IMG/VR virus record: IMGVR_UViG_2802429217_000005
Location: 1 to 38,049 of that record
Source: a virus
Taxonomy: Duplodnaviria > Heunggongvirae > Uroviricota > Caudoviricetes
Reading direction: 5' to 3' (one strand)
DNA length: 38,049 nt
This document shows, one piece after another, positions 3,011 through 36,410 of this stretch. The stretch's first letter is position 1, and the number at the start of each line of letters is the position of its first letter. The position numbers and the translations under genes were made by a program. The notes below the pieces were generated by a model. The model ran no database searches and was not told the DNA's origin. It was given only the letters and a program-made list of their open reading frames with translations.

Positions 3011-3841
3011 ACCGGACTCCTCCTGCGATCCCTTCTGATACTGTCATCAGCATTACGTCATCCTCCGTCATGTCCGCCACATCCGGGGAAGTAGGGATAA
3101 CTTCATTCCCGTCCGGGCCAAAGCGGACACCTCCGGCAAGCCCTGCCGCTTTCTGCATCAGCACATCATCTTCAGGCTCTTCGTCAGCCTCACGCCGGTT
3201 CAGCAGACTGAAATCCAGCGGATGCATATCCGGATCGCTGAAAAACAGGCTGAGCACGGTGTACGTCAGCCCGGAAAAGTGCATATCCAGCAGAACATCA
3301 TGAAAATAATGGGTACTGTAAAAGCGGTGCCAGTCGGCATACTCCGTGGATGACATCCCGGCAAGCATGGCACGCCAGTCGGGTCGCCCCATCTCACGCG
3401 CCAGTTTCAGGGCAAAACTCAGCTCACCGTCGAACACTTTCCCGCAGAAACAGGCTCTGCGGGCCCGGCGTCCTCTGTCTGTTCAGGGGCATTATTCACC
3501 ACAAACTCATACATACCAGACAACCGGTACACCACGTTTTCAGCATGAGAAATTGCCTCTGTAGGCCAGGTGGTAAGCACTTCCTGCTCAATCTGTTTAA
3601 CGGCTTCATTCATGGACGGCATCTGCGTCTTCTGCGGATGGTTATGCCACAGGGACATCGCCACCAGAAACGCGCCGGTTCTGATGGCGTCTTCCACAGT
3701 AAACTTCCGGTTGCTGTCTGACTCCGCCTGTTCTGCCTGCCGTTTCATCAGGGCGAGATGCTCAATACGCTGCAGGGCTGACAGTTCAGAAAGCGTGACG
3801 GTCACGCCGTTATGTTCAAATGATTCGGTTTTCAGGAACAT
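3003..3841 (-). CDS. T: tail assembly chaperone G-T fusion made by programmed -1 ribosomal frameshift
   Basis: The -1 frame downstream of the GGGAAAG heptamer stays open to 3003 and encodes a lambda gpT-like sequence (FDGELSFALKLAREMGRPDWRAMLAGMSS...); the T frame has no start of its own apart from the track's GTG artefact. Confidence 0.75.
3419..3841 (-). CDS. G: tail assembly chaperone G
   Basis: 140-aa ORF MFLKTESFEHNGVTVTLSELSALQRIEHLALMKRQ... matching lambda gpG; ends ...AGKCSTVS with the slippery site in its last codons. Confidence 0.9.
   Translation of the reverse strand: MFLKTESFEHNGVTVTLSELSALQRIEHLALMKRQAEQAESDSNRKFTVEDAIRTGAFLVAMSLWHNHPQKTQMPSMNEAVKQIEQEVLTTWPTEAISHAENVVYRLSGMYEFVVNNAPEQTEDAGPAEPVSAGKCSTVS
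3437..3443 (-). promoter_or_regulatory. slippery heptamer G GGA AAG for the G to G-T -1 frameshift
   Basis: Plus-strand CTTTCCC at 3437-3443 is GGGAAAG on the minus strand, in phase X XXY YYZ with G codons 133-135 (Ala-Gly-Lys). Confidence 0.8.
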
Positions 3842-3856
3842 CGCTGACTCTCCGGA

Positions 3857-4597
3857 TTAACTGTCGGTGACAGTGATTTCTGCAACCGCAGCAAGTTCAC
3901 CATTACCGGATACAACCGGAATGTTGACCTTACCTGCAGCAACGCCTTTCACGGTGATGGTCATACCACTGACCGACACGGTGGCTTTTGTTTTATCCGC
4001 TGACACCGCACGGAAGCTCTTGTCAGTTGCGCCCTCCGGCTGGAATGCCACGGTCAGCGTGGTGCTCTGCCCTTTCACCACCGAGGAGCTGGCAGGCGTC
4101 ACAGTCATACCGGTTGCCGCCGTCACCGTACTGCGATCTTCTGCCATTGACGGACGGCCCACATTGGTGACCTTCACCGTACGGGTGATCACTTCCTTCG
4201 CCGTCACCGCCTTACCGATACTGCTGACCCAGCCACGGAACACATCGACCGTGCCGTTCGGGAAGCGGATTTTATAGGCACGGGTATCACCTTCATTAAA
4301 CCACGCCAGCAGCGCCTGCTGCCCCTGCTCTCCGGGCATCCACGCCAGCGTGAAGCTGGTATCTCCGGCGGATTTCTGCCCCTGCCCGGTCGCGGTCCAG
4401 TCCGCATCTTCATCATCGAGATAACTGTCGTCATAGGACTCAGCGGTCAGTTCGCCGGGCGTCAGGTCTTTAACTTTAGCCAGACGCGACCAGTCAACGT
4501 CTGAAAGCGGGTTCGCATAAGGGTCGCCGCTCCCGTTATAAACCCACAGGGTGGTCCCGGCACCTTTCACCGGTATTGCTGGATTTGGTACAGGCAT
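3857..4597 (-). CDS. V: major tail tube protein V
   Basis: Protein from the internal ATG at 4597 ([20 protein letters not shown]..., 246 aa) matches lambda gpV including the C-terminal Ig-like region; GAGGA Shine-Dalgarno 5 nt upstream. The track ORF is extended 10 codons upstream. Confidence 0.93.
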
Positions 4598-4604
4598 ATC
4601 GTCC

Positions 4605-5000
4605 TCACATTTCATAGGTAATGACATAAGTCAGATCGGCAGAACTCCACAGGCCCGCATCATCGTCGCGCCGGTAGTCATAGCCACTGGCCACCATACT
4701 GGTGAGCAAATCTGACAGTGCCGGGATATCGCTCATCACCGGATAAATCCGGGACTCCATCCACGAATCCAGCTCTGAATCCGGTACCTGAGCAGGCAGG
4801 AAAACTTCGATATGCAGCTCCGCCTGCCAGGTATCGCTGTCCAGCTCTTCGCCCGTGTATTCAGCGCCGGTGAGATAAACGGCAACTGCCGGAAAATCCG
4901 CCTCATCAAAAACAGCGGGGCGACCATCAAAAAACGTCGCCCCGGTGTCATGCTTCTCCAGTGCATCCAGTACGGCTGCACGGAGTTCAGTATGTTTCAT
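4605..5000 (-). CDS. U: tail terminator protein U
   Basis: 131-aa [34 protein letters not shown]... matching lambda gpU. Confidence 0.93.
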
Positions 5001-5940: not shown

Positions 5941-6307
5941 AAACAGCCATTCCACCATCAACGTGTGTTTTTGCATCTGAGGACATAATCAGAATCACCC
6001 GACCAACATCCGCAAGCTCAACGGATTCCCCCGTTTCACCATCAACGCCACAGAGATGGAGGCAGGTCAGAACTCTGATGCGCGTTAACGCGCCGGATGT
6101 TTCCTCACGAACATCATGAGCCGCGGTTTCCCGCTCCCGGATATCCATATTCATAACCTGTACATCATCGCCGGATGACTGCATTTCCTCTTCCCATTCT
6201 GCCACCCGCTGCGCTATCTCTGCGGCACTCCCGGATATATCCGGCTCACGCCCCAGAATCAGGGCCAGTTCATCAAGCCGTTTCAGATTTTGCTCTTTCG
6301 TTGCCAT
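5933..6307 (-). CDS. FI: head completion / DNA packaging protein FI-like
   Basis: Position between E and FII; acidic protein starting MATKEQNLKRLDELALILGREPDISGS at the ATG at 6307; only weakly resembles lambda FI from memory. Confidence 0.65.
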   Translation of the reverse strand: MATKEQNLKRLDELALILGREPDISGSAAEIAQRVAEWEEEMQSSGDDVQVMNMDIRERETAAHDVREETSGALTRIRVLTCLHLCGVDGETGESVELADVGRVILIMSSDAKTHVDGGMAVYA

Positions 6308-6358
6308 ATCAGCCCCCTGTGAAAAAAGACACGGGGGCATTTCGCCCCCGCTCACGGA

Positions 6359-7387
6359 TTATTTCACCTGTACCACCACAAACTCATCCGGATCCGGCAA
6401 CACCATCAGCGGCGCGGACTGCGTCATGGTAAATTCACGGGCGGGATCCCCTACCGTCAGCCAGTGTTTCGGATAACGGGAAGAGGCCACCACACCTTCG
6501 GACAACGCCTGAGCATCCTGAATGGCACCGTAACAACGGATCCCATCTGCAGCAGTATTCCCCAGAACCAGCATGCCATCTGGAAGATAACGTTTTTCGA
6601 TACCGTCTTCTGCTATATAAGACGTTTTCGCCACCACAATGGCCAGATCGCCGTAATACCCCTTGAAGGACACCACTGCGCCCAGATCTTTCACTGCCGT
6701 TTCGAGTTGAGAATTTGAACCGCGACGGGTATCCAGTTTTTCGCGGAACAGCTTAAAACCATTCAGAAGACGCCAGACGGTACCGTCCATAATGGCAATA
6801 TTCACAAGACCGCTGGCCTGGTCGCAGTAGAGGTCAATATCATGTGTAGGATCGAACGTGTCACGATCCTGTTTTGACCACTCCTTACCACTACCCTGAG
6901 TGATGTTATTCTTCGTCGACCTGCCAAAATCGACCTCAATTTTCTCGAACTGGTCTCCTTCCATGGTGTATTTGCCATACAACACAGCATTTACCGCCTG
7001 CATTTCTTCCACCTGGACAATCGCGTGCTCTTCCTGTTTGAGGTTATCGGTAATGATACGCAGACGGCGGTAAGCCGGATCATTCAGTTGAGATGGATCT
7101 TCACCAGGAAGGCGCTCAACCGCCTGCTGGTAATTAAATTCGTGTTTCGGCTTGACGTAGCCCGGACGCAACACGCGGGTTTCACCACCACGATGACGCA
7201 GCACTTTTCCTTCAACAACCGGGGAGACATAGGCCGCCACCGGCGTTTTTCCGGTAATTTTGTCCAGCATCACCTCTTCGGTATGGAAATTCACCGTACG
7301 GCGGAAAAACAGCTCCAGAAACAGCGCACGAAATTTAACTTTTTGTTCGGTATAACCGAGTAACTGGCGGGTCGTAAACAATCCCAT
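6359..7387 (-). CDS. E: major capsid protein E
   Basis: 342-aa ORF with extensive blocks shared with lambda gpE (e.g. PGYVKPKHE, EEMQAV, KEKLDTRRGSNS, GDPAREFTM, QSAPLM) but clearly diverged. Confidence 0.9.
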   Translation of the reverse strand: MGLFTTRQLLGYTEQKVKFRALFLELFFRRTVNFHTEEVMLDKITGKTPVAAYVSPVVEGKVLRHRGGETRVLRPGYVKPKHEFNYQQAVERLPGEDPSQLNDPAYRRLRIITDNLKQEEHAIVQVEEMQAVNAVLYGKYTMEGDQFEKIEVDFGRSTKNNITQGSGKEWSKQDRDTFDPTHDIDLYCDQASGLVNIAIMDGTVWRLLNGFKLFREKLDTRRGSNSQLETAVKDLGAVVSFKGYYGDLAIVVAKTSYIAEDGIEKRYLPDGMLVLGNTAADGIRCYGAIQDAQALSEGVVASSRYPKHWLTVGDPAREFTMTQSAPLMVLPDPDEFVVVQVK

Positions 7388-31209: not shown

Positions 31210-31860
31210 ATGATGATGGAAAGCCTTGGCATTAGGCTTAAGAGACTCAGAAAAGACAAGGGACTGACCCAAGTCGAACTGGGCAAGCTTTCTGGCGTAA
31301 CAGGGGTAACTATAGGGTACTGGGAGAAAGACCTAAACGAACCCGGTAGCAAAGCTCTTAGTAAATTAGCCCAAGCACTAGGAACTACTGAGTCCTATCT
31401 CCTATATGGAGTATCGTCTACTGAACCTACCCTTGTGCAGAACAATTCAGGCACCCAAATCCCCTATCTTTCATGGGGGGAAGCAATTTCTTTCCTAATT
31501 TTAGAAGGAGAGAAAACTATGGGAAATGCCGACAGAATCACCACATTCTTTGACGTCAAGGAGGGGGATTTTGCCGTTTCAATGCCTGATGACACTATGC
31601 ACAACCCATCAGGGTCGCCAAGCATTCCGGTTGGTGCCACAGTGATCATGAGGCCTAGAGAAAAATATAAAAATGGTAGTATCGTCGCTGTAATAGTCCC
31701 AGATCCGCTTACAAACGAACCATCTATGACTATAAAAAAATTAGTCATCGACGGAAAACTCGTGTATTTAAGCCCCCTCAATCCTCGCTATCAATCGTCC
31801 TTACTGACACCTGAATGTAAAATTGTTGCTGTAGCAAAAGGTGTGCAGTTCAGCCTATAG
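31210..31860 (+). CDS. CI-like prophage repressor (HTH-XRE N-terminus, S24 LexA-type peptidase C-terminus)
   Basis: 216-aa ORF; N-terminal LKRLRKDKGLTQVELGKLSGVTGVTIGYWE HTH; C-terminal FAVSMPDDTM ... IVAVIV ... MTIKKLV consistent with an S24 Ser/Lys autoprotease; GGGAGA Shine-Dalgarno. Confidence 0.85.
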   Translation: MMMESLGIRLKRLRKDKGLTQVELGKLSGVTGVTIGYWEKDLNEPGSKALSKLAQALGTTESYLLYGVSSTEPTLVQNNSGTQIPYLSWGEAISFLILEGEKTMGNADRITTFFDVKEGDFAVSMPDDTMHNPSGSPSIPVGATVIMRPREKYKNGSIVAVIVPDPLTNEPSMTIKKLVIDGKLVYLSPLNPRYQSSLLTPECKIVAVAKGVQFSL

Positions 31861-32056: not shown

Positions 32057-32290
32057 ATGACGGCAGGGTTCAACTTTAACTATGCAGCAGGTTTTTGTTC
32101 CGCCACCCCGGCGTTAAGGGGAAATGAGGTCAGCATGGATACTATCGATCTTGGCAACAGCGAATCTCTGGTATGTGGCGTGTTCCCCAACCAGGACGGT
32201 ACGTTCACCGCGATGACATATACCAAAAGCAAAACGTTTAAAACCGAATCTGGCGCGCGTCGCTGGCTGGAAAGAAATTCAGGTGAGTGA
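32057..32290 (+). CDS. YdfA-like (DUF1391) small protein
   Basis: The C-terminal 51 aa from the ATG at 32135 (MDTIDLGNSESLVCGVFPNQDGTFTAMTYTKSKTFKTESGARRWLERNSGE) match E. coli YdfA as recalled; the longer 77-codon frame is also open. Confidence 0.6.
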   Translation: MTAGFNFNYAAGFCSATPALRGNEVSMDTIDLGNSESLVCGVFPNQDGTFTAMTYTKSKTFKTESGARRWLERNSGE

Positions 32291-32291
32291 T

Positions 32292-32420
32292 ATGGATTTC
32301 GACGCAATCATGGAAAAGGCTTACGAAGAATACTTCGAAGGCCTTGCCGAAGGCGAAGAAGCTCTCAGCTTCAGCGAATTTAAACAGGCGCTTTCCAGTT
32401 CGGCAAAAGCTAACAACTGA
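32292..32420 (+). CDS. YdfB-like small acidic protein
   Basis: 42-codon ORF missed by the track: MDFDAIMEKAYEEYFEGLAEGEEALSFSEFKQALSSSAKANN; starts 2 nt after the ydfA-like stop. Confidence 0.55.
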   Translation: MDFDAIMEKAYEEYFEGLAEGEEALSFSEFKQALSSSAKANN

Positions 32421-32512
32421 GAAGTTTATGATGGAATTGAGAGTTTGTTTCAAACTCTCAATAAACCAGAGGCAGGTAAGGAGCGTTAAATTATTGCTTG
32501 AGAGCAATAAGA

Positions 32513-33046
32513 TCACTCAATCTCACCGCTATAGGCATTCCATCTGAGCATGAGTGCACGCCAGAAAATATCGTTTATGTGCAAAACACAGTATGGATTT
32601 TCGTCGGGAAGGAGTTGCCCTTCCATGGGGAGCAAAATATTAGCAGATACCAGTTTTTTTATATCAGAATTATTGCGTACAGCATGGATCACAGGATAGT
32701 TCCTCGATAATGCCGTAATAAGAATTTTTTTCTGACCCGCAGTCAAGGAATCGATAACTGCATTGATATGACTGATTATTTTTTGTTCTCTTGTATTGTT
32801 CCGGTGACTTCGCCAGATCTTACGAAGAAATAAAGCTAAACGTTGGAGATTTATAGCCAGCACAAAAGAAAAGGCAAAAACGAATACCGGGTAAATATAA
32901 GGAATGCTGATTTTGTCTTGAACATACTCCGGTACAGAATCAGGCATAAAGAGCAATATCAAAACAAAGATAATAAGCATATACATAAGGCGCTCTAAGG
33001 GTTCGTTACTGAATAACTTGCTCAACAAGCCGAATACATCAGGCAT
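32513..33046 (-). CDS. membrane protein of unknown function, encoded antisense within the ydfAB-dicF operon
   Basis: 177-aa ORF with two N-terminal hydrophobic segments and a soluble C-terminal domain; visibly AT-rich; opposite strand to the flanking early-left genes. Confidence 0.5.
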   Translation of the reverse strand: MPDVFGLLSKLFSNEPLERLMYMLIIFVLILLFMPDSVPEYVQDKISIPYIYPVFVFAFSFVLAINLQRLALFLRKIWRSHRNNTREQKIISHINAVIDSLTAGQKKILITALSRNYPVIHAVRNNSDIKKLVSANILLPMEGQLLPDENPYCVLHINDIFWRALMLRWNAYSGEIE

Positions 33047-33357
33047 ATTAATAACTCTCTACTGTAAGGGTATTAAAATGTTATCACAGACTCTCGCTGT
33101 AGGGGTATAGCCGAGACCACCGAGCCTGAAGTGGTAAAAAGACAGGCACACAACACGAAAGCGCACGGCGAGGCTGTTAGTTCATAAATGGTCTGTCGTT
33201 AAATTTACGTCGACCGTGCGCTTCCGGTTGTGGCACTCCGCGAAATGGCGCGGCGGTAAGTATGGCGGGGTTATTCCTTCCCCCGTTGAGGACACCGGGT
33301 TGTCAGGTTGACCATACGCTTAAGTGACAACCCCGCTGCAACGCCCTCTGTTATCAT

Positions 33358-33415
33358 TTTTCTGGTGACGTTTGGCGGTATCAGTTTTACTCCGTGACTG
33401 CTCTGCCGCCCTTTT
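33358..33415 (+). ncRNA. dicF: DicF small RNA
   Basis: TTTCTGGTGACGTTTGGCGGTATCAGTTTTACTCCGTGACTGCTCTGCCGCCC followed by TTTTT matches the recalled 53-nt DicF sequence and its terminator. Confidence 0.8.
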
Positions 33416-33590
33416 TAAAGTGAATTTTGTGATGTGGTGAATGCGGCTGAGCGCACGCGGAACAGTTAAAACCAAAAACAGTGAAATGGGTGGATTCTCT
33501 GTATCCGGCGTTAATTGTTAACTGGTTAACGTCACCTGGAGGCACCAGGCACCGCATCAACAAAGTTCATTTGTAAAAATGGAGATAATT

Positions 33591-33812
33591 ATGATTGCTC
33601 ATCACTTCGGAACTGATGAGATTCCTCGTCAGTGCGTGACTCCCGGTGATTATGTTATTCATAAAGGAAGAACATATATTGCTTCGGTAAACAACATTAA
33701 AAAACAACGGCTCTATATTCGTGATTTTTCCACACAACACTGTATTAAGGAAACCATGATTAAAGTCTTCCTTGGTCGTGATGGTTTACCTGTAAAAGCA
33801 GAGTCATGGTGA
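33591..33812 (+). CDS. hypothetical protein in the position DicB occupies in Qin
   Basis: 73 aa from the ATG at 33591 (GGAG 6 nt upstream); does not resemble DicB as I recall it; function unknown. Confidence 0.4.
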
Positions 33813-33935
33813 GCAGTAATAAAATAACTGCCACAATACGACATTCAGCTTAATGAATACATCAGATTTGATTCTTATATGCCAGCAATGGCAGGGATTT
33901 GTTCACCCTTAAATCTGTAATGAGGTTAAAACAAA

Positions 33936-36410
33936 ATGAGTAAAGTCTTTATTTGCGCCGCCATTCCTGACGAACAGGCAATTACGGAAGAAGGTGCAGT
34001 TGCTGTAGCCACTGCCATCGAAGCTGGTGACGAACGCCGCGCCCGTGCCAAATTTACCTGGCAATTCCTGGAGCAATATCCGGCTGCTCAGGACTGTGCT
34101 TATAAATTTCTTGTCTGCGAGGATAAACCCGGCATGGCCCGCCCTGCCCTTGGTTCCTGGGATACCGAATATATGCAGGAAAACCGCTGGGATGAGGGAT
34201 CGTCTTCCTTTGTCCCGGTCGAACCAGAGCCGAATACAGAAATTGTTAACTTTAATCAGTTATCCGACGACAAACAGGCCGCTGTTCTCGTTAAGTTTGG
34301 CGCACATGAAAACGTCACCGTGGATATGGTCATCAACGCAAGCGGGCTTCTTGGCGATGACGACATGATGACCTTTGACGGACACCTCGCAGAGGCAATT
34401 ATCCGGACTAAAGAAATTAACGCCATGTATCCGGAACGTCAGATTGAATACATCAACGATGCCAGACGTGATTTAAAACCAACCGCCAAATGGCCCGACG
34501 TTCAGGCATATTTTCTCGACCGTAAAAAACGCCAGGAAAAGGAGCGCAAAGAAGGTGGTGCATATACTTCTGTTGTTGATCTCGCCCGCGCCAGCGTCAA
34601 CCGGCAGAACACTGAAAACTCAGTAGCAAAAATCAACCCTGTCACTACTGCCATTCGTCGCGAATACAAGCAGACATGGAAAACACTGGATGATGAACTG
34701 GCCTACGCTCTGTGGCCTGGTGACATTGATGCCGGAAACATTGACGGCAGCATCCATCGCTGGGCAAAAAATGAAGTTATCGACAACGACCGCGAAGACT
34801 GGAAGCGTATCTCGGCATCAATGCGCAAACAACCTGATGCCCTTCGCTACGACCGCCAGACTATTTTTGGCCTTGTCCGTGAACGTCCGATCGACATTCA
34901 CAAAGACCCTGTGGCACTGAACAAATACATTACTGAATACCTGACTACAAAGGGCGTGTTTGAAGATGAAGGAAGAAATCAGAGCGCAACTGATACTCTC
35001 TCGTCGCCAGTACCAGAAACTGATGCAGTGGAAACGGCAATTCCGGACAACGAAAAAACCGAATGCAAAGTGGAAGTCGAACCATCTGTAGAGCGTGAGG
35101 GGCCGTTCTACTTCCTCTTCACCGACAAGGATGGCGAAAAATACGGTCGCGCAAACAAACTTTCTGGTCTGGATAAGGCACTGGCTGCCGGGGCTACTGA
35201 AATCACGAAAGAAGAATATTTCGCCCGCAAAAACGGTACATACTCAGGTTCACAACAAAATACTGGTGCATCTGATACGACCGCACAACCAGGGCCGGTA
35301 AAAGTTACCGCTGACGAAGTAAACAAAATTATGCAGGCAGCCAATATCAGCCAGCCTGACGCCGATGAACTGCTTGCAGTATCACGCGGTGAATTTGTTG
35401 CAGGGATTAGCGATCCGAATGATCCGAAATGGGTAAAGGGGATTGAAACCCGCGATTCTGTGAACCAGAACCAGCAAGAAACGGAACAGAACGATCAGAA
35501 AGCGGAACAAAACAGCCCAAATACGCAACAAAACGAGCCAGAAACGAAACAACCTGAACCAGTAGTGCAACAGGAACCGAAAAAGATCTGCACCGCCTGC
35601 GGTCAGAGCGGTGGCGGCAACTGCCATGATTGTGGTGCGCTGATGGGCGACGCAACATACCAGGAAACATTCGATGACAAGAACCAGGTTGAAGTTCAGG
35701 AAGACGATTCGGAGAAAATGGAAGGCGCTGAACATCCACACAAGGGGAATGCTGGCAGCGCTCAGGACCACGCCAGCGATAGTGAAACTGGCGAGAGGGC
35801 AGATCCCTTAATTACGGTGAACGGTCATCACGTTATCACATCCACCAGCAGGACGTGTGACCATCTAATGATCGACCTTGAAACCATGGGAAAAAATCCT
35901 GATGCCCCGATCATCTCAATAGGTGCAATATTTTTCGATCCGCAAACCGGAGATATGGGACCGGAATTTAGTAAGACTATCGATCTGGAAACTGCTGGCG
36001 GAGTCATTGATCGGGACACCATTAAATGGTGGCTTAAGCAATCACGCGAAGCGCAATCTGCCATTATGACCGATGAAATCCCGTTAGATGATGCACTGTT
36101 ACAATTGCGGGAATTTATCGACGAAAACTCCGGTGAATTTTTTGTTCAGGTTTGGGGAAATGGAGCCAACTTCGACAACACGATTTTGCGCCGTTCATAC
36201 GAACGGCAGGGGATCCCCTGCCCGTGGCGTTACTACAACGATCGCGATGTACGCACAATCGTTGAGCTGGGGAAAGCCATAGACTTCGATGCCAGAACGG
36301 CTATTCCATTCGAAGGTGAGCGCCATAATGCACTTGATGACGCCCGTTACCAGGCAAAATACGTTTCAGTTATCTGGCAAAAACTTATCCCGAGTCAGGC
36401 TGATTCTTAA
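33936..36410 (+). CDS. RecE-like exonuclease: large N-terminal region plus C-terminal DEDDh (DnaQ-like) 3'-5' exonuclease domain
   Basis: 824-aa ORF; central block LLAVSRGEFVAGISDPNDPKWVKGIETRD resembles RecE; C-terminus has LMIDLETMG, WGNGANFDNTIL and HNALDDARY (DEDDh-like); Cys cluster CTACGQSGGGNCHDCG. Confidence 0.7.
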   Translation: MSKVFICAAIPDEQAITEEGAVAVATAIEAGDERRARAKFTWQFLEQYPAAQDCAYKFLVCEDKPGMARPALGSWDTEYMQENRWDEGSSSFVPVEPEPNTEIVNFNQLSDDKQAAVLVKFGAHENVTVDMVINASGLLGDDDMMTFDGHLAEAIIRTKEINAMYPERQIEYINDARRDLKPTAKWPDVQAYFLDRKKRQEKERKEGGAYTSVVDLARASVNRQNTENSVAKINPVTTAIRREYKQTWKTLDDELAYALWPGDIDAGNIDGSIHRWAKNEVIDNDREDWKRISASMRKQPDALRYDRQTIFGLVRERPIDIHKDPVALNKYITEYLTTKGVFEDEGRNQSATDTLSSPVPETDAVETAIPDNEKTECKVEVEPSVEREGPFYFLFTDKDGEKYGRANKLSGLDKALAAGATEITKEEYFARKNGTYSGSQQNTGASDTTAQPGPVKVTADEVNKIMQAANISQPDADELLAVSRGEFVAGISDPNDPKWVKGIETRDSVNQNQQETEQNDQKAEQNSPNTQQNEPETKQPEPVVQQEPKKICTACGQSGGGNCHDCGALMGDATYQETFDDKNQVEVQEDDSEKMEGAEHPHKGNAGSAQDHASDSETGERADPLITVNGHHVITSTSRTCDHLMIDLETMGKNPDAPIISIGAIFFDPQTGDMGPEFSKTIDLETAGGVIDRDTIKWWLKQSREAQSAIMTDEIPLDDALLQLREFIDENSGEFFVQVWGNGANFDNTILRRSYERQGIPCPWRYYNDRDVRTIVELGKAIDFDARTAIPFEGERHNALDDARYQAKYVSVIWQKLIPSQADS

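What the first reader, a model, noticed from the sequence alone, without database searches (positions are those of the whole stretch)
32428..33046. Membrane protein gene inserted antisense in the ydfAB-dicF early-left operon
Between ydfB-like and dicF the plus strand holds only a 39-codon frame (32428-32547, MMELRVCFKLSINQRQ...), while a 177-aa two-TM protein is encoded on the opposite strand in AT-rich DNA. Its position and topology resemble SieB-type superinfection-exclusion genes, but I cannot confirm homology.
Basis: partly seen in the sequence, partly recalled or inferred. Interest (0 to 1): 0.55.

Follow-up and report, generated by a model that had tools for sequence, protein, structure and literature searches.

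The report
Ordinary prophage SieB exclusion gene
The antisense membrane-protein gene is an intact copy of sieB, the well-known superinfection-exclusion gene that lambda, P22 and the Rac prophage all carry in this same backwards position in their early-left operon, so it is an ordinary feature.

Summary
Window 32513-33046 (-) is a 177-aa ORF with two N-terminal hydrophobic helices, in DNA of 39% GC (window 49%), lying between ydfB and DicF.

The protein passes Pfam SieB (55.5 bits, cut-off 26) and PHROG 6399 'SieB superinfection exclusion' (E 5e-37). It aligns end to end with lambda SieB (33% identity) and is 35% identical to K-12 Rac SieB. RefSeq already names near-identical copies 'super-infection exclusion protein B'.

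The antisense placement is the canonical one:
- lambda: N - sieB - ral
- P22: gene 24 - sieB/esc - ral
- Rac: ydaF - sieB - kilS/kilR
- homologues in Yersinia, Hafnia and Citrobacter prophages

The about 105 nt upstream of the gene are homologous to the P22 sieB promoter and to the P22 sas antisense RNA. Met23 aligns with the P22 Esc start. The whole SieB/Esc/sas layout therefore seems to be present, although expression was not tested.

Nine complete E. coli genomes carry this allele with a 1-bp frameshift; the window copy is intact. Interest is low.

The parts
32513..33046 (-). sieB coding sequence, 177 aa plus stop. Layout: N-terminal conserved motif KLFSNEPLERLM, TM1 at about residues 20-34, TM2 at about 48-68, a basic stretch, then a C-terminal cytoplasmic domain of about 80 aa.
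   Evidence: ORF. Pfam PF14163 at 55.5 bits. PHROG 6399 at E 5e-37. Pairwise alignments to lambda and Rac SieB. Homologues of 177-181 aa in four genera. pN/pS 0.32-0.40. Hydropathy. AlphaFold2 model with mean pLDDT 80.8.
32513..32980 (-). Possible Esc-like in-frame product starting at Met23 (codon 32980-32978). This is inferred, not shown.
   Evidence: Window Met23 aligns with P22 Met25, the annotated esc start. Met21 is invariant and Met23 nearly invariant in the family alignment.
33078..33110 (-). sieB promoter-like region, placed by homology with the annotated P22 sieB promoter. The predicted transcription start is about 33071, which gives a 25-nt leader.
   Evidence: Annotation of P22 record NC_002371, aligned in A3. 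The simple sigma-70 consensus scan did not flag this region.
33042..33150 (+). sas-like region: the early-left-strand complement of the sieB start codon, leader and promoter. It is homologous to the P22 sas antisense RNA. It contains two copies of CTCTC-N-CTGTA(A/G)GGGTAT (33055-33074 and 33091-33110) and a small hairpin at 33116-33135.
   Evidence: P22 sas sequence in PMC13397905. blastn gives 90% identity over 60 nt to P22. Alignments A3-A6. The upstream region is more conserved than the coding sequence. No fold or covariation support. No Rfam family.
32654..32660 (.). T7/A7 run inside codons Ile-Lys-Lys. A 1-bp deletion here in relatives truncates SieB to 156 aa.
   Evidence: DNA and protein comparison with AR_0017. 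Hits H1-H9 share the same 99.0% identity and the same 900-base match length as AR_0017.
32436..32510 (.). Two hairpins in the 92-nt spacer between the convergent ydfB and sieB stops. One is a perfect 12-bp stem (32436-32462); the other is an 8-bp stem (32491-32510) immediately after the sieB stop. They are candidate sieB 3'-end structures.
   Evidence: (z -5.3 on the minus strand).
32428..32547 (+).
   Evidence: No PHROG hit. No visible similarity to YdfC by eye; not aligned. It spans the two hairpins and the antisense of the sieB 3' end.
32057..32420 (+). ydfA-like gene (DUF1391) and ydfB-like gene (32292-32420) of the early-left operon.
33360..33411 (+). DicF small RNA, downstream on the early-left strand.
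   Evidence: Rfam RF00039 at 76.7 bits.
33591..33812 (+). kilR-like gene, the next early-left gene.
   Evidence: PHROG 294 at E 2.6e-34. Pfam KilR.

Best explanation
This is the sieB gene of a lambdoid (Rac/Qin-type mosaic) prophage of E. coli.

Shown:
- It encodes an intact member of the SieB family.
- It has two N-terminal hydrophobic helices and a C-terminal domain of about 80 residues.
- It sits antisense in the early-left operon, exactly as in lambda, P22 and Rac.
- It is preceded by a sequence homologous to the P22 sieB promoter and the P22 sas RNA.

Inferred from P22 and lambda work:
1. In the lysogen the gene is transcribed from its own promoter while the early-left promoter is repressed.
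2. The inner-membrane protein, with N- and C-termini in the cytoplasm, aborts the lytic growth of some superinfecting lambdoid phages by shutting down macromolecular synthesis midway through infection.
3. When the prophage's own early-left operon is transcribed, the antisense transcript across the sieB start (sas-like) shifts translation from full-length SieB to an N-terminally shortened Esc-like product starting at Met23. That product neutralises SieB, so the phage does not exclude itself.

On this reading the backwards orientation is part of the mechanism and not an anomaly.
For: Family membership:
- Pfam SieB at 55.5 bits against a cut-off of 26.
- PHROG 6399 'SieB superinfection exclusion' at E 5e-37, covering residues 3-176.
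- 33% identity over 175 aa to lambda SieB, pairwise E 6e-32.
- 35% identity to K-12 Rac SieB.
- tblastn hits only annotated sieB genes in phage records.
- RefSeq annotation of 99%-identical copies as SieB.

A real, constrained gene:
- Length of 177-181 aa is kept in E. coli, Yersinia, Citrobacter and Hafnia.
- pN/pS is 0.32-0.40 with synonymous sites saturated.

Position:
- sieB is antisense within the early-left operon in lambda, P22, Rac and the Yersinia, Citrobacter and Hafnia prophages.

Regulation:
- The upstream 104 nt are 61-74% identical to P22, lambda and Rac, against 40-49% for the coding DNA.
- Identity to P22 is 90% over 60 nt.
- This region corresponds to the annotated P22 promoter and transcription start and to the P22 sas RNA sequence.
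- Met23 aligns with the P22 Esc start.

Function of the family:
- SieB stops macromolecular synthesis midway through the lytic cycle of superinfecting phages (PMC10883804).
- sas switches translation between the SieB and Esc peptides (PMC12197685 and PMC7067206).
- Esc is encoded in frame within sieB and inhibits it (PMC3224144).
Against: - No expression or phenotype data exist for this allele.
- Identity to P22 SieB, the only mechanistically studied member, is just 19%.
- The NCBIfam and PADLOC libraries give no hit.
- The sigma-70 consensus scan does not pick up the homology-inferred promoter.
- The sas-like RNA has no thermodynamic signal (z -0.85) and no covariation support.
- Met21 and Met23 sit at the start of TM1 and could be conserved simply as hydrophobic residues.
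- Nine complete genomes carry a frameshifted copy of this same allele, so it is dispensable in some lineages.
Confidence: 0.85

Rival explanations
1. The gene is a decaying remnant in a cryptic prophage: a SieB homologue by descent that no longer does anything.
For: The nine closest complete-genome copies carry a 1-bp deletion that replaces the last 47 residues. In another strain the gene is interrupted by an IS3 element. Only 12 of 5426 complete E. coli genomes carry this allele.
Against: The window copy is full length and aligns to lambda SieB and to the Yersinia, Hafnia and Citrobacter homologues right to the C-terminus. An intact copy differing by one residue is present in EC261. pN/pS is 0.32-0.40. 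The surrounding prophage retains terminase, portal, protease, major head, tape measure, replication and integrase genes.
Confidence: 0.08
2. The protein is a small membrane protein with a role other than phage exclusion, for example a holin-like, toxin-like or host-physiology 'moron' function. On this view the SieB name is only a family label.
Against: The full-length architecture, the invariant N-terminal motif, the conserved promoter/sas block and the conserved genomic slot are all shared with the characterised members.
Confidence: 0.05
3. The real gene in this gap is on the plus strand (the 39-codon frame or a ydfC remnant), and the 177-aa frame is fortuitous.
For: Early-left transcription runs through here on the plus strand, and small plus-strand ORFs exist.
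Against: The 39-aa frame has no PHROG hit and shows no visible similarity to YdfC (by eye, not aligned). blastn finds no similarity to the Qin-type ydfC region between 32424 and 33092. The 39-codon frame is made of two hairpins. The minus-strand ORF has strong family hits and a purifying-selection pattern.
Confidence: 0.02

Closest known systems
Bacteriophage lambda SieB (git; NP_597779.1, lambda 34482-35036)
   Same: 33% identity over the whole length. Same two-TM plus C-terminal-domain layout. Same N-terminal motif FSNEPLER-MYM. Same antisense position in the pL operon. Homologous upstream block.
   Different: In lambda the flanking genes are N and ral. Here they are ydfB and DicF/kilR, and no N-like gene was seen in the stretch examined. 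The sequence is diverged: 49% nucleotide identity in the coding DNA.
Salmonella phage P22 sieB / esc / sas system
   Same: Same family (PHROG 1301, E 1.9e-8). Same orientation. An in-frame Met at the Esc start position. The upstream promoter/sas region is 90% identical over 60 nt.
   Different: Only 19% protein identity. P22 has a longer leader. Whether an Esc-like product and a sas-like RNA are made here is untested.
E. coli K-12 Rac prophage sieB (b1353)
   Same: 35% identity. Nearly the same operon context: DUF1391 gene, then antisense sieB, then a small RNA, then kilR, then exonuclease, xis and int.
   Different: The Rac protein is 162 aa with a different C-terminal half. In Rac sieB overlaps the ydaF end. 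Downstream, Rac has KilS and recET, whereas this prophage has DicF, a dicB fragment and a YdfE/Rv2179c-like exonuclease.
RefSeq WP_050483990.1 and WP_021538001.1 ('super-infection exclusion protein B', E. coli)
   Same: WP_050483990.1 (strain EC261) differs from the window protein by one residue. WP_021538001.1 is the same allele.
   Different: WP_021538001.1 is the 156-aa frameshifted form. EC261 carries the gene in a recE-type Rac-like prophage.

Membership tests
SieB superinfection-exclusion family (Pfam PF14163 / PHROG 6399) | Profile match above the curated threshold | tested here: met
   Pfam SieB at 55.5 bits against a gathering score of 26, E 6.3e-15. PHROG 6399 at E 5e-37, residues 3-176 against profile positions 6-176 of 183. 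NCBIfam and PADLOC give no hit for this protein.
SieB superinfection-exclusion family (Pfam PF14163 / PHROG 6399) | End-to-end similarity to an experimentally characterised member (lambda SieB) | tested here: met
   33% identity and 55% positives over residues 3-177, pairwise E 6e-32. tblastn against phage records gives E 1e-16.
SieB superinfection-exclusion family (Pfam PF14163 / PHROG 6399) | Two N-terminal membrane helices followed by a soluble C-terminal domain | tested here: met
   Hydropathy peaks at about residues 24-33 and 54-65. Net charge is +6 after TM2 and -2 in the loop. The AlphaFold2 model has helices 14-33 and 51-99 and a compact domain at 103-168 with pLDDT of about 88-91.
SieB superinfection-exclusion family (Pfam PF14163 / PHROG 6399) | Located in the early-left operon of a lambdoid phage, transcribed against it | tested here: met
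   In the window the order is cI-like repressor (+), ydfA/ydfB (+), sieB (-), DicF (+), kilR (+), exonuclease (+), xis and int (+). The same arrangement is seen in lambda, P22 and Rac.
P22-type SieB/Esc/sas regulatory module | In-frame internal start that gives the Esc inhibitor | tested here: inconclusive
   Met23 aligns with P22 Met25, the annotated esc start, and is nearly invariant. There is no strong Shine-Dalgarno sequence, and translation cannot be tested here.
P22-type SieB/Esc/sas regulatory module | Antisense sas RNA covering the sieB start codon and leader | tested here: inconclusive
   A sequence homologue is present at 33042-33150 (+), 90% identical over 60 nt to P22 and aligned to the published sas sequence. 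There is no structural support and no Rfam model. Expression cannot be tested here.
P22-type SieB/Esc/sas regulatory module | Own promoter that is active in the lysogen | tested here: inconclusive
   The region aligns to the annotated P22 sieB promoter and transcription start. The -10-like element is TGTGATAAC at 33088-33080. The consensus scan does not report a promoter there.
SieB superinfection-exclusion family (Pfam PF14163 / PHROG 6399) | Abortive-infection phenotype against superinfecting phages | not testable with these tools
   The phenotype is known for P22 SieB (PMC10883804). It needs plating and burst assays for this allele.

The most novel reading that the evidence does not exclude
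The roughly 100-nt block upstream of sieB (promoter plus sas-like antisense segment) may be a portable control cassette for an 'antisense moron slot' in the early-left operon of Rac/Qin/lambda-type prophages. The cassette is retained while the cargo gene is swapped: lambda-type SieB here, Rac-type SieB in K-12, and an unrelated PHROG 1244 protein of unknown function in FORC_082-type prophages. If so, the resident phage's own early-left transcription would silence or re-program whichever defence cargo sits there. Separately, the SieB C-terminal domain may be a winged-helix-like sensor tethered to the membrane.
Probability: 0.25. Interest if true: 0.35.

Novelty: already known. Interest (0 to 1): 0.12.

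Why it matters
It matters little beyond correct annotation. The gene should be labelled sieB, intact and 177 aa, and the 39-codon plus-strand frame should be ignored.

Three minor points are useful:
- This allele is rare, present in 12 of 5426 complete E. coli genomes.
- It is frameshifted at an A7/T7 run in most of those genomes, so this window supplies an intact reference copy.
- The SieB mechanism is still poorly understood. An intact lambda-like allele with a conserved sas-like block next to DicF is a usable test case for the Esc/sas self-protection model in E. coli.

Tried and rejected
- The scan of one genome per species for relatives returned only five Rac-type loci and added nothing.
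- The PDB sequence search found nothing meaningful; the best hit was E 0.07 to a TM segment of a sodium leak channel.
- NCBIfam and PADLOC gave no hit.
- The sas-like RNA fold has z -0.85, and 1 of 15 predicted pairs shows a compensatory change, so I make no structural claim.
- Rfam at a permissive threshold found only DicF.
- The sigma-70 and terminator scan found nothing at the sieB ends.
- The original Ranade and Poteete papers are not held, so their content is cited through later papers and through the P22 record annotation. Whether sas comes from its own promoter or from processing of the pL transcript I could not verify.
- A literature search for KilS found nothing.
- ydfC remnant: blastn finds no similarity to the Qin-type ydfC region in 32424-33092. 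I rejected this idea.
- The 151-aa antisense ORF in FORC_082 as a SieB relative: I rejected this too. It has 12% identity and no TM segment, and it belongs to PHROG 1244.

Full report
**The observation**

The minus strand of the window carries a 177-aa ATG ORF at 32513-33046. At its own base composition (39% GC; the window is 49%), about 0.08 ORFs this long are expected by chance in the six frames of the window.

Kyte-Doolittle hydropathy gives two hydrophobic segments, around residues 20-34 and 48-68. The loop between them is acidic (net -2) and the stretch after the second is strongly basic (net +6). By the positive-inside rule this suggests both termini are cytoplasmic (the topology is an inference).

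- a cI-like HTH plus S24 peptidase repressor (31210-31860, +)
- a DUF1391 ydfA-like gene and a ydfB-like gene
- on the far side, DicF at 33360-33411 (+; Rfam 76.7 bits)
- then kilR, an 824-aa YdfE/Rv2179c-type exonuclease, xis and int

The 39-codon plus-strand frame at 32428-32547 exists, but it is not the only small plus-strand frame. It is built from two hairpins, a 12-bp perfect stem at 32436-32462 and an 8-bp stem at 32491-32510, plus the antisense of the sieB 3' end. It has no PHROG hit and no visible similarity to YdfC when the two sequences are read side by side (no alignment was run). I treat it as non-coding.

**What the gene is**

The protein matches the following:
- Pfam SieB (PF14163) at 55.5 bits against a gathering score of 26
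- PHROG 6399 'SieB superinfection exclusion' at E 5e-37 over essentially its full length
- more weakly, the P22-type sieB/esc PHROG 1301
- lambda SieB from residue 3 to residue 177, at 33% identity and pairwise E 6e-32
- the K-12 Rac prophage SieB at 35% identity

A tblastn against 50,697 phage records hits only annotated sieB genes.

In complete E. coli genomes, 12 of 5426 carry this allele, and PGAP names it 'super-infection exclusion protein B'. The copy in strain EC261 differs by one residue.

Homologues of 47-61% identity and 177-181 aa occur in Yersinia, Citrobacter, Hafnia and unnamed assemblies, all with the Pfam SieB domain. The N-terminal motif K-L-x-S-N-E-P-L-E-R-L-M is invariant among them. 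Against these homologues pN/pS is 0.32-0.40 with synonymous sites near saturation. The gene is therefore a constrained coding sequence.

The exact protein is encoded on E. coli GCA_002965595.1 contig PTRN01000017.1, which is evidently the source of the window.

**The position is canonical**

- In lambda, sieB (+) lies between N (-) and ral (-).
- In P22, sieB/esc (+) lies between gene 24 (-) and ral (-).
- In K-12 Rac, sieB (+) lies between ydaF (a DUF1391 gene, -) and kilS/kilR (-).
- In the Yersinia, Citrobacter and Hafnia prophages and two metagenomic prophages, the homologue is again the one gene pointing against the repressor-to-integrase early-left genes.

Relative to Qin-type prophages, similarity to the window stops at about 32424 (the end of ydfB) and resumes at about 33092. 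K-12 Qin has ydfC and no antisense gene there. This is a module exchange between conserved junctions, not an unusual insertion.

**Regulatory anatomy**

The roughly 105 nt upstream of the sieB start codon are much better conserved than the gene. Identity to P22, lambda and Rac is 61%, 73% and 74%, against 40%, 49% and 43% for the coding DNA. blastn gives 90% identity over 60 nt to P22.

The P22 record annotates the sieB promoter and RNA start in exactly this block. By alignment these map to window 33078-33110, with a start near 33071. The -10-like element is TGTGATAAC. A plain sigma-70 consensus scan does not flag it.

On the other strand, this block is the P22 sas antisense RNA. The sequence was published from small-RNA reads in PMC13397905. 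It begins two bases inside the sieB ORF and runs through the leader and promoter to the conserved ACCACC...GTGGT hairpin and AAAAGACAGGCACA. The window equivalent is about 33042-33150 (+).

According to the literature, sas switches translation between the two sieB-encoded peptides (PMC12197685 and PMC7067206). Esc is an in-frame N-terminally shortened product that inhibits SieB (PMC3224144). The P22 record places the esc start at codon 25, which aligns with Met23 of the window protein. Met23 is nearly invariant in the family.

All the sequence ingredients of the SieB/Esc/sas arrangement are therefore present. Their expression is not shown. The sas-like RNA has no thermodynamic signal (z -0.85) and no covariation support, and there is no Rfam family for it.

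**How it most likely works**

Most of this section is inference from the family.

1. In the lysogen, with the early-left promoter repressed, sieB is transcribed from its own promoter and SieB inserts in the inner membrane.
2. On superinfection by a sensitive lambdoid phage, it stops macromolecular synthesis midway through the lytic cycle. This is the phenotype described for P22 SieB in PMC10883804.
3. When the phage's own early-left operon fires, transcription across the sieB 5' end supplies the antisense RNA, and translation shifts to the Esc-like form. The phage is then not excluded by its own gene.

The backwards orientation thus serves the regulation.

**State of the gene**

Strain AR_0017 lacks one T of the T7 run at 32654-32660. 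This changes the frame after Lys130 and gives a 156-aa product with an unrelated tail. Hits H1-H9 share the same 99.0% identity and 900-base match length, so they probably carry the same deletion.

The window copy and the EC261-type copies are intact and match lambda and the distant homologues to the last residues. In strain MS 119-7 an IS3 element interrupts the gene.

The surrounding prophage keeps terminase, portal, protease, major head, tape measure, replication and integrase genes. A working prophage with a working sieB is plausible.

**Verdict**

Novelty is 'already known' and interest is low.

One point could repay follow-up. The conserved promoter/sas-like block persists in diverged form upstream of an unrelated antisense ORF (PHROG 1244) in FORC_082-type prophages. 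This hints at a reusable control cassette for a cargo slot.

Noticed in passing
L002 (E. coli FORC_082, NZ_CP026641.1) 3505-3960 (-), with upstream block 3961-4075; equivalent to window 33047-33150: Qin-type prophages that keep ydfC carry a different antisense ORF in the same slot. It is 151 aa, belongs to PHROG 1244 (unknown function), has no TM segment and is not SieB-like. A diverged copy of the same promoter/sas-like block lies upstream of it. This suggests a swappable cargo slot under shared control.
   Followed up: partly
window 32654-32660: A T7/A7 run inside sieB is the site of a 1-bp deletion in AR_0017. Hits H1-H9 share the same identity and match length, so they probably carry it too. 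The deletion gives a 156-aa frameshifted SieB that RefSeq annotates as if it were intact (WP_021538001.1).
   Followed up: yes
window 33042-33150 (+): This is a sequence homologue of the P22 sas antisense RNA. It is conserved in lambda, Rac, Yersinia and Hafnia sieB loci and is absent from Rfam. It contains a duplicated motif, CTCTC-N-CTGTA(A/G)GGGTAT, at 33055-33074 and 33091-33110.
   Followed up: partly
window 33150-33830; L004 (K-12 Rac) 5994-6416: The prophage is a Rac/Qin mosaic downstream of sieB. It has a Qin-type DicF (33360-33411), a dicB fragment (about 33479-33562, annotated as partial in AR_0017), then a Rac-type kilR (33591-33812, about 82% nucleotide identity to Rac). In Rac the newly annotated small RNA KilS (L004 6406-6503) overlaps by only about 11 nt the Rac stretch (L004 5994-6416) that blastn aligns to window 33406-33827, so it lies in roughly the DicF position. 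The KilS-DicF relationship was not examined.
   Followed up: no
window 32436-32510: Two stable hairpins sit in the 92-nt spacer between the convergent ydfB and sieB stops (minus-strand fold z -5.3). Neither has a good U-tract. Early-left transcription must read through them to reach DicF and kilR.
   Followed up: partly
L003 (E. coli MS 119-7) 3516-4729: In this strain an IS3-family element is inserted into the same sieB allele. The match to the window ends at 32775, and a 68-aa 'hypothetical protein' is annotated on the far side of the element.
   Followed up: no
window 33156-33226 and 33265-33336: Two imperfect inverted repeats lie between the sas-like block and DicF on the early-left strand. 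One has 13-nt arms at 92% complementarity and the other 15-nt arms at 80%. They may be processing structures of the DicF precursor.
   Followed up: no
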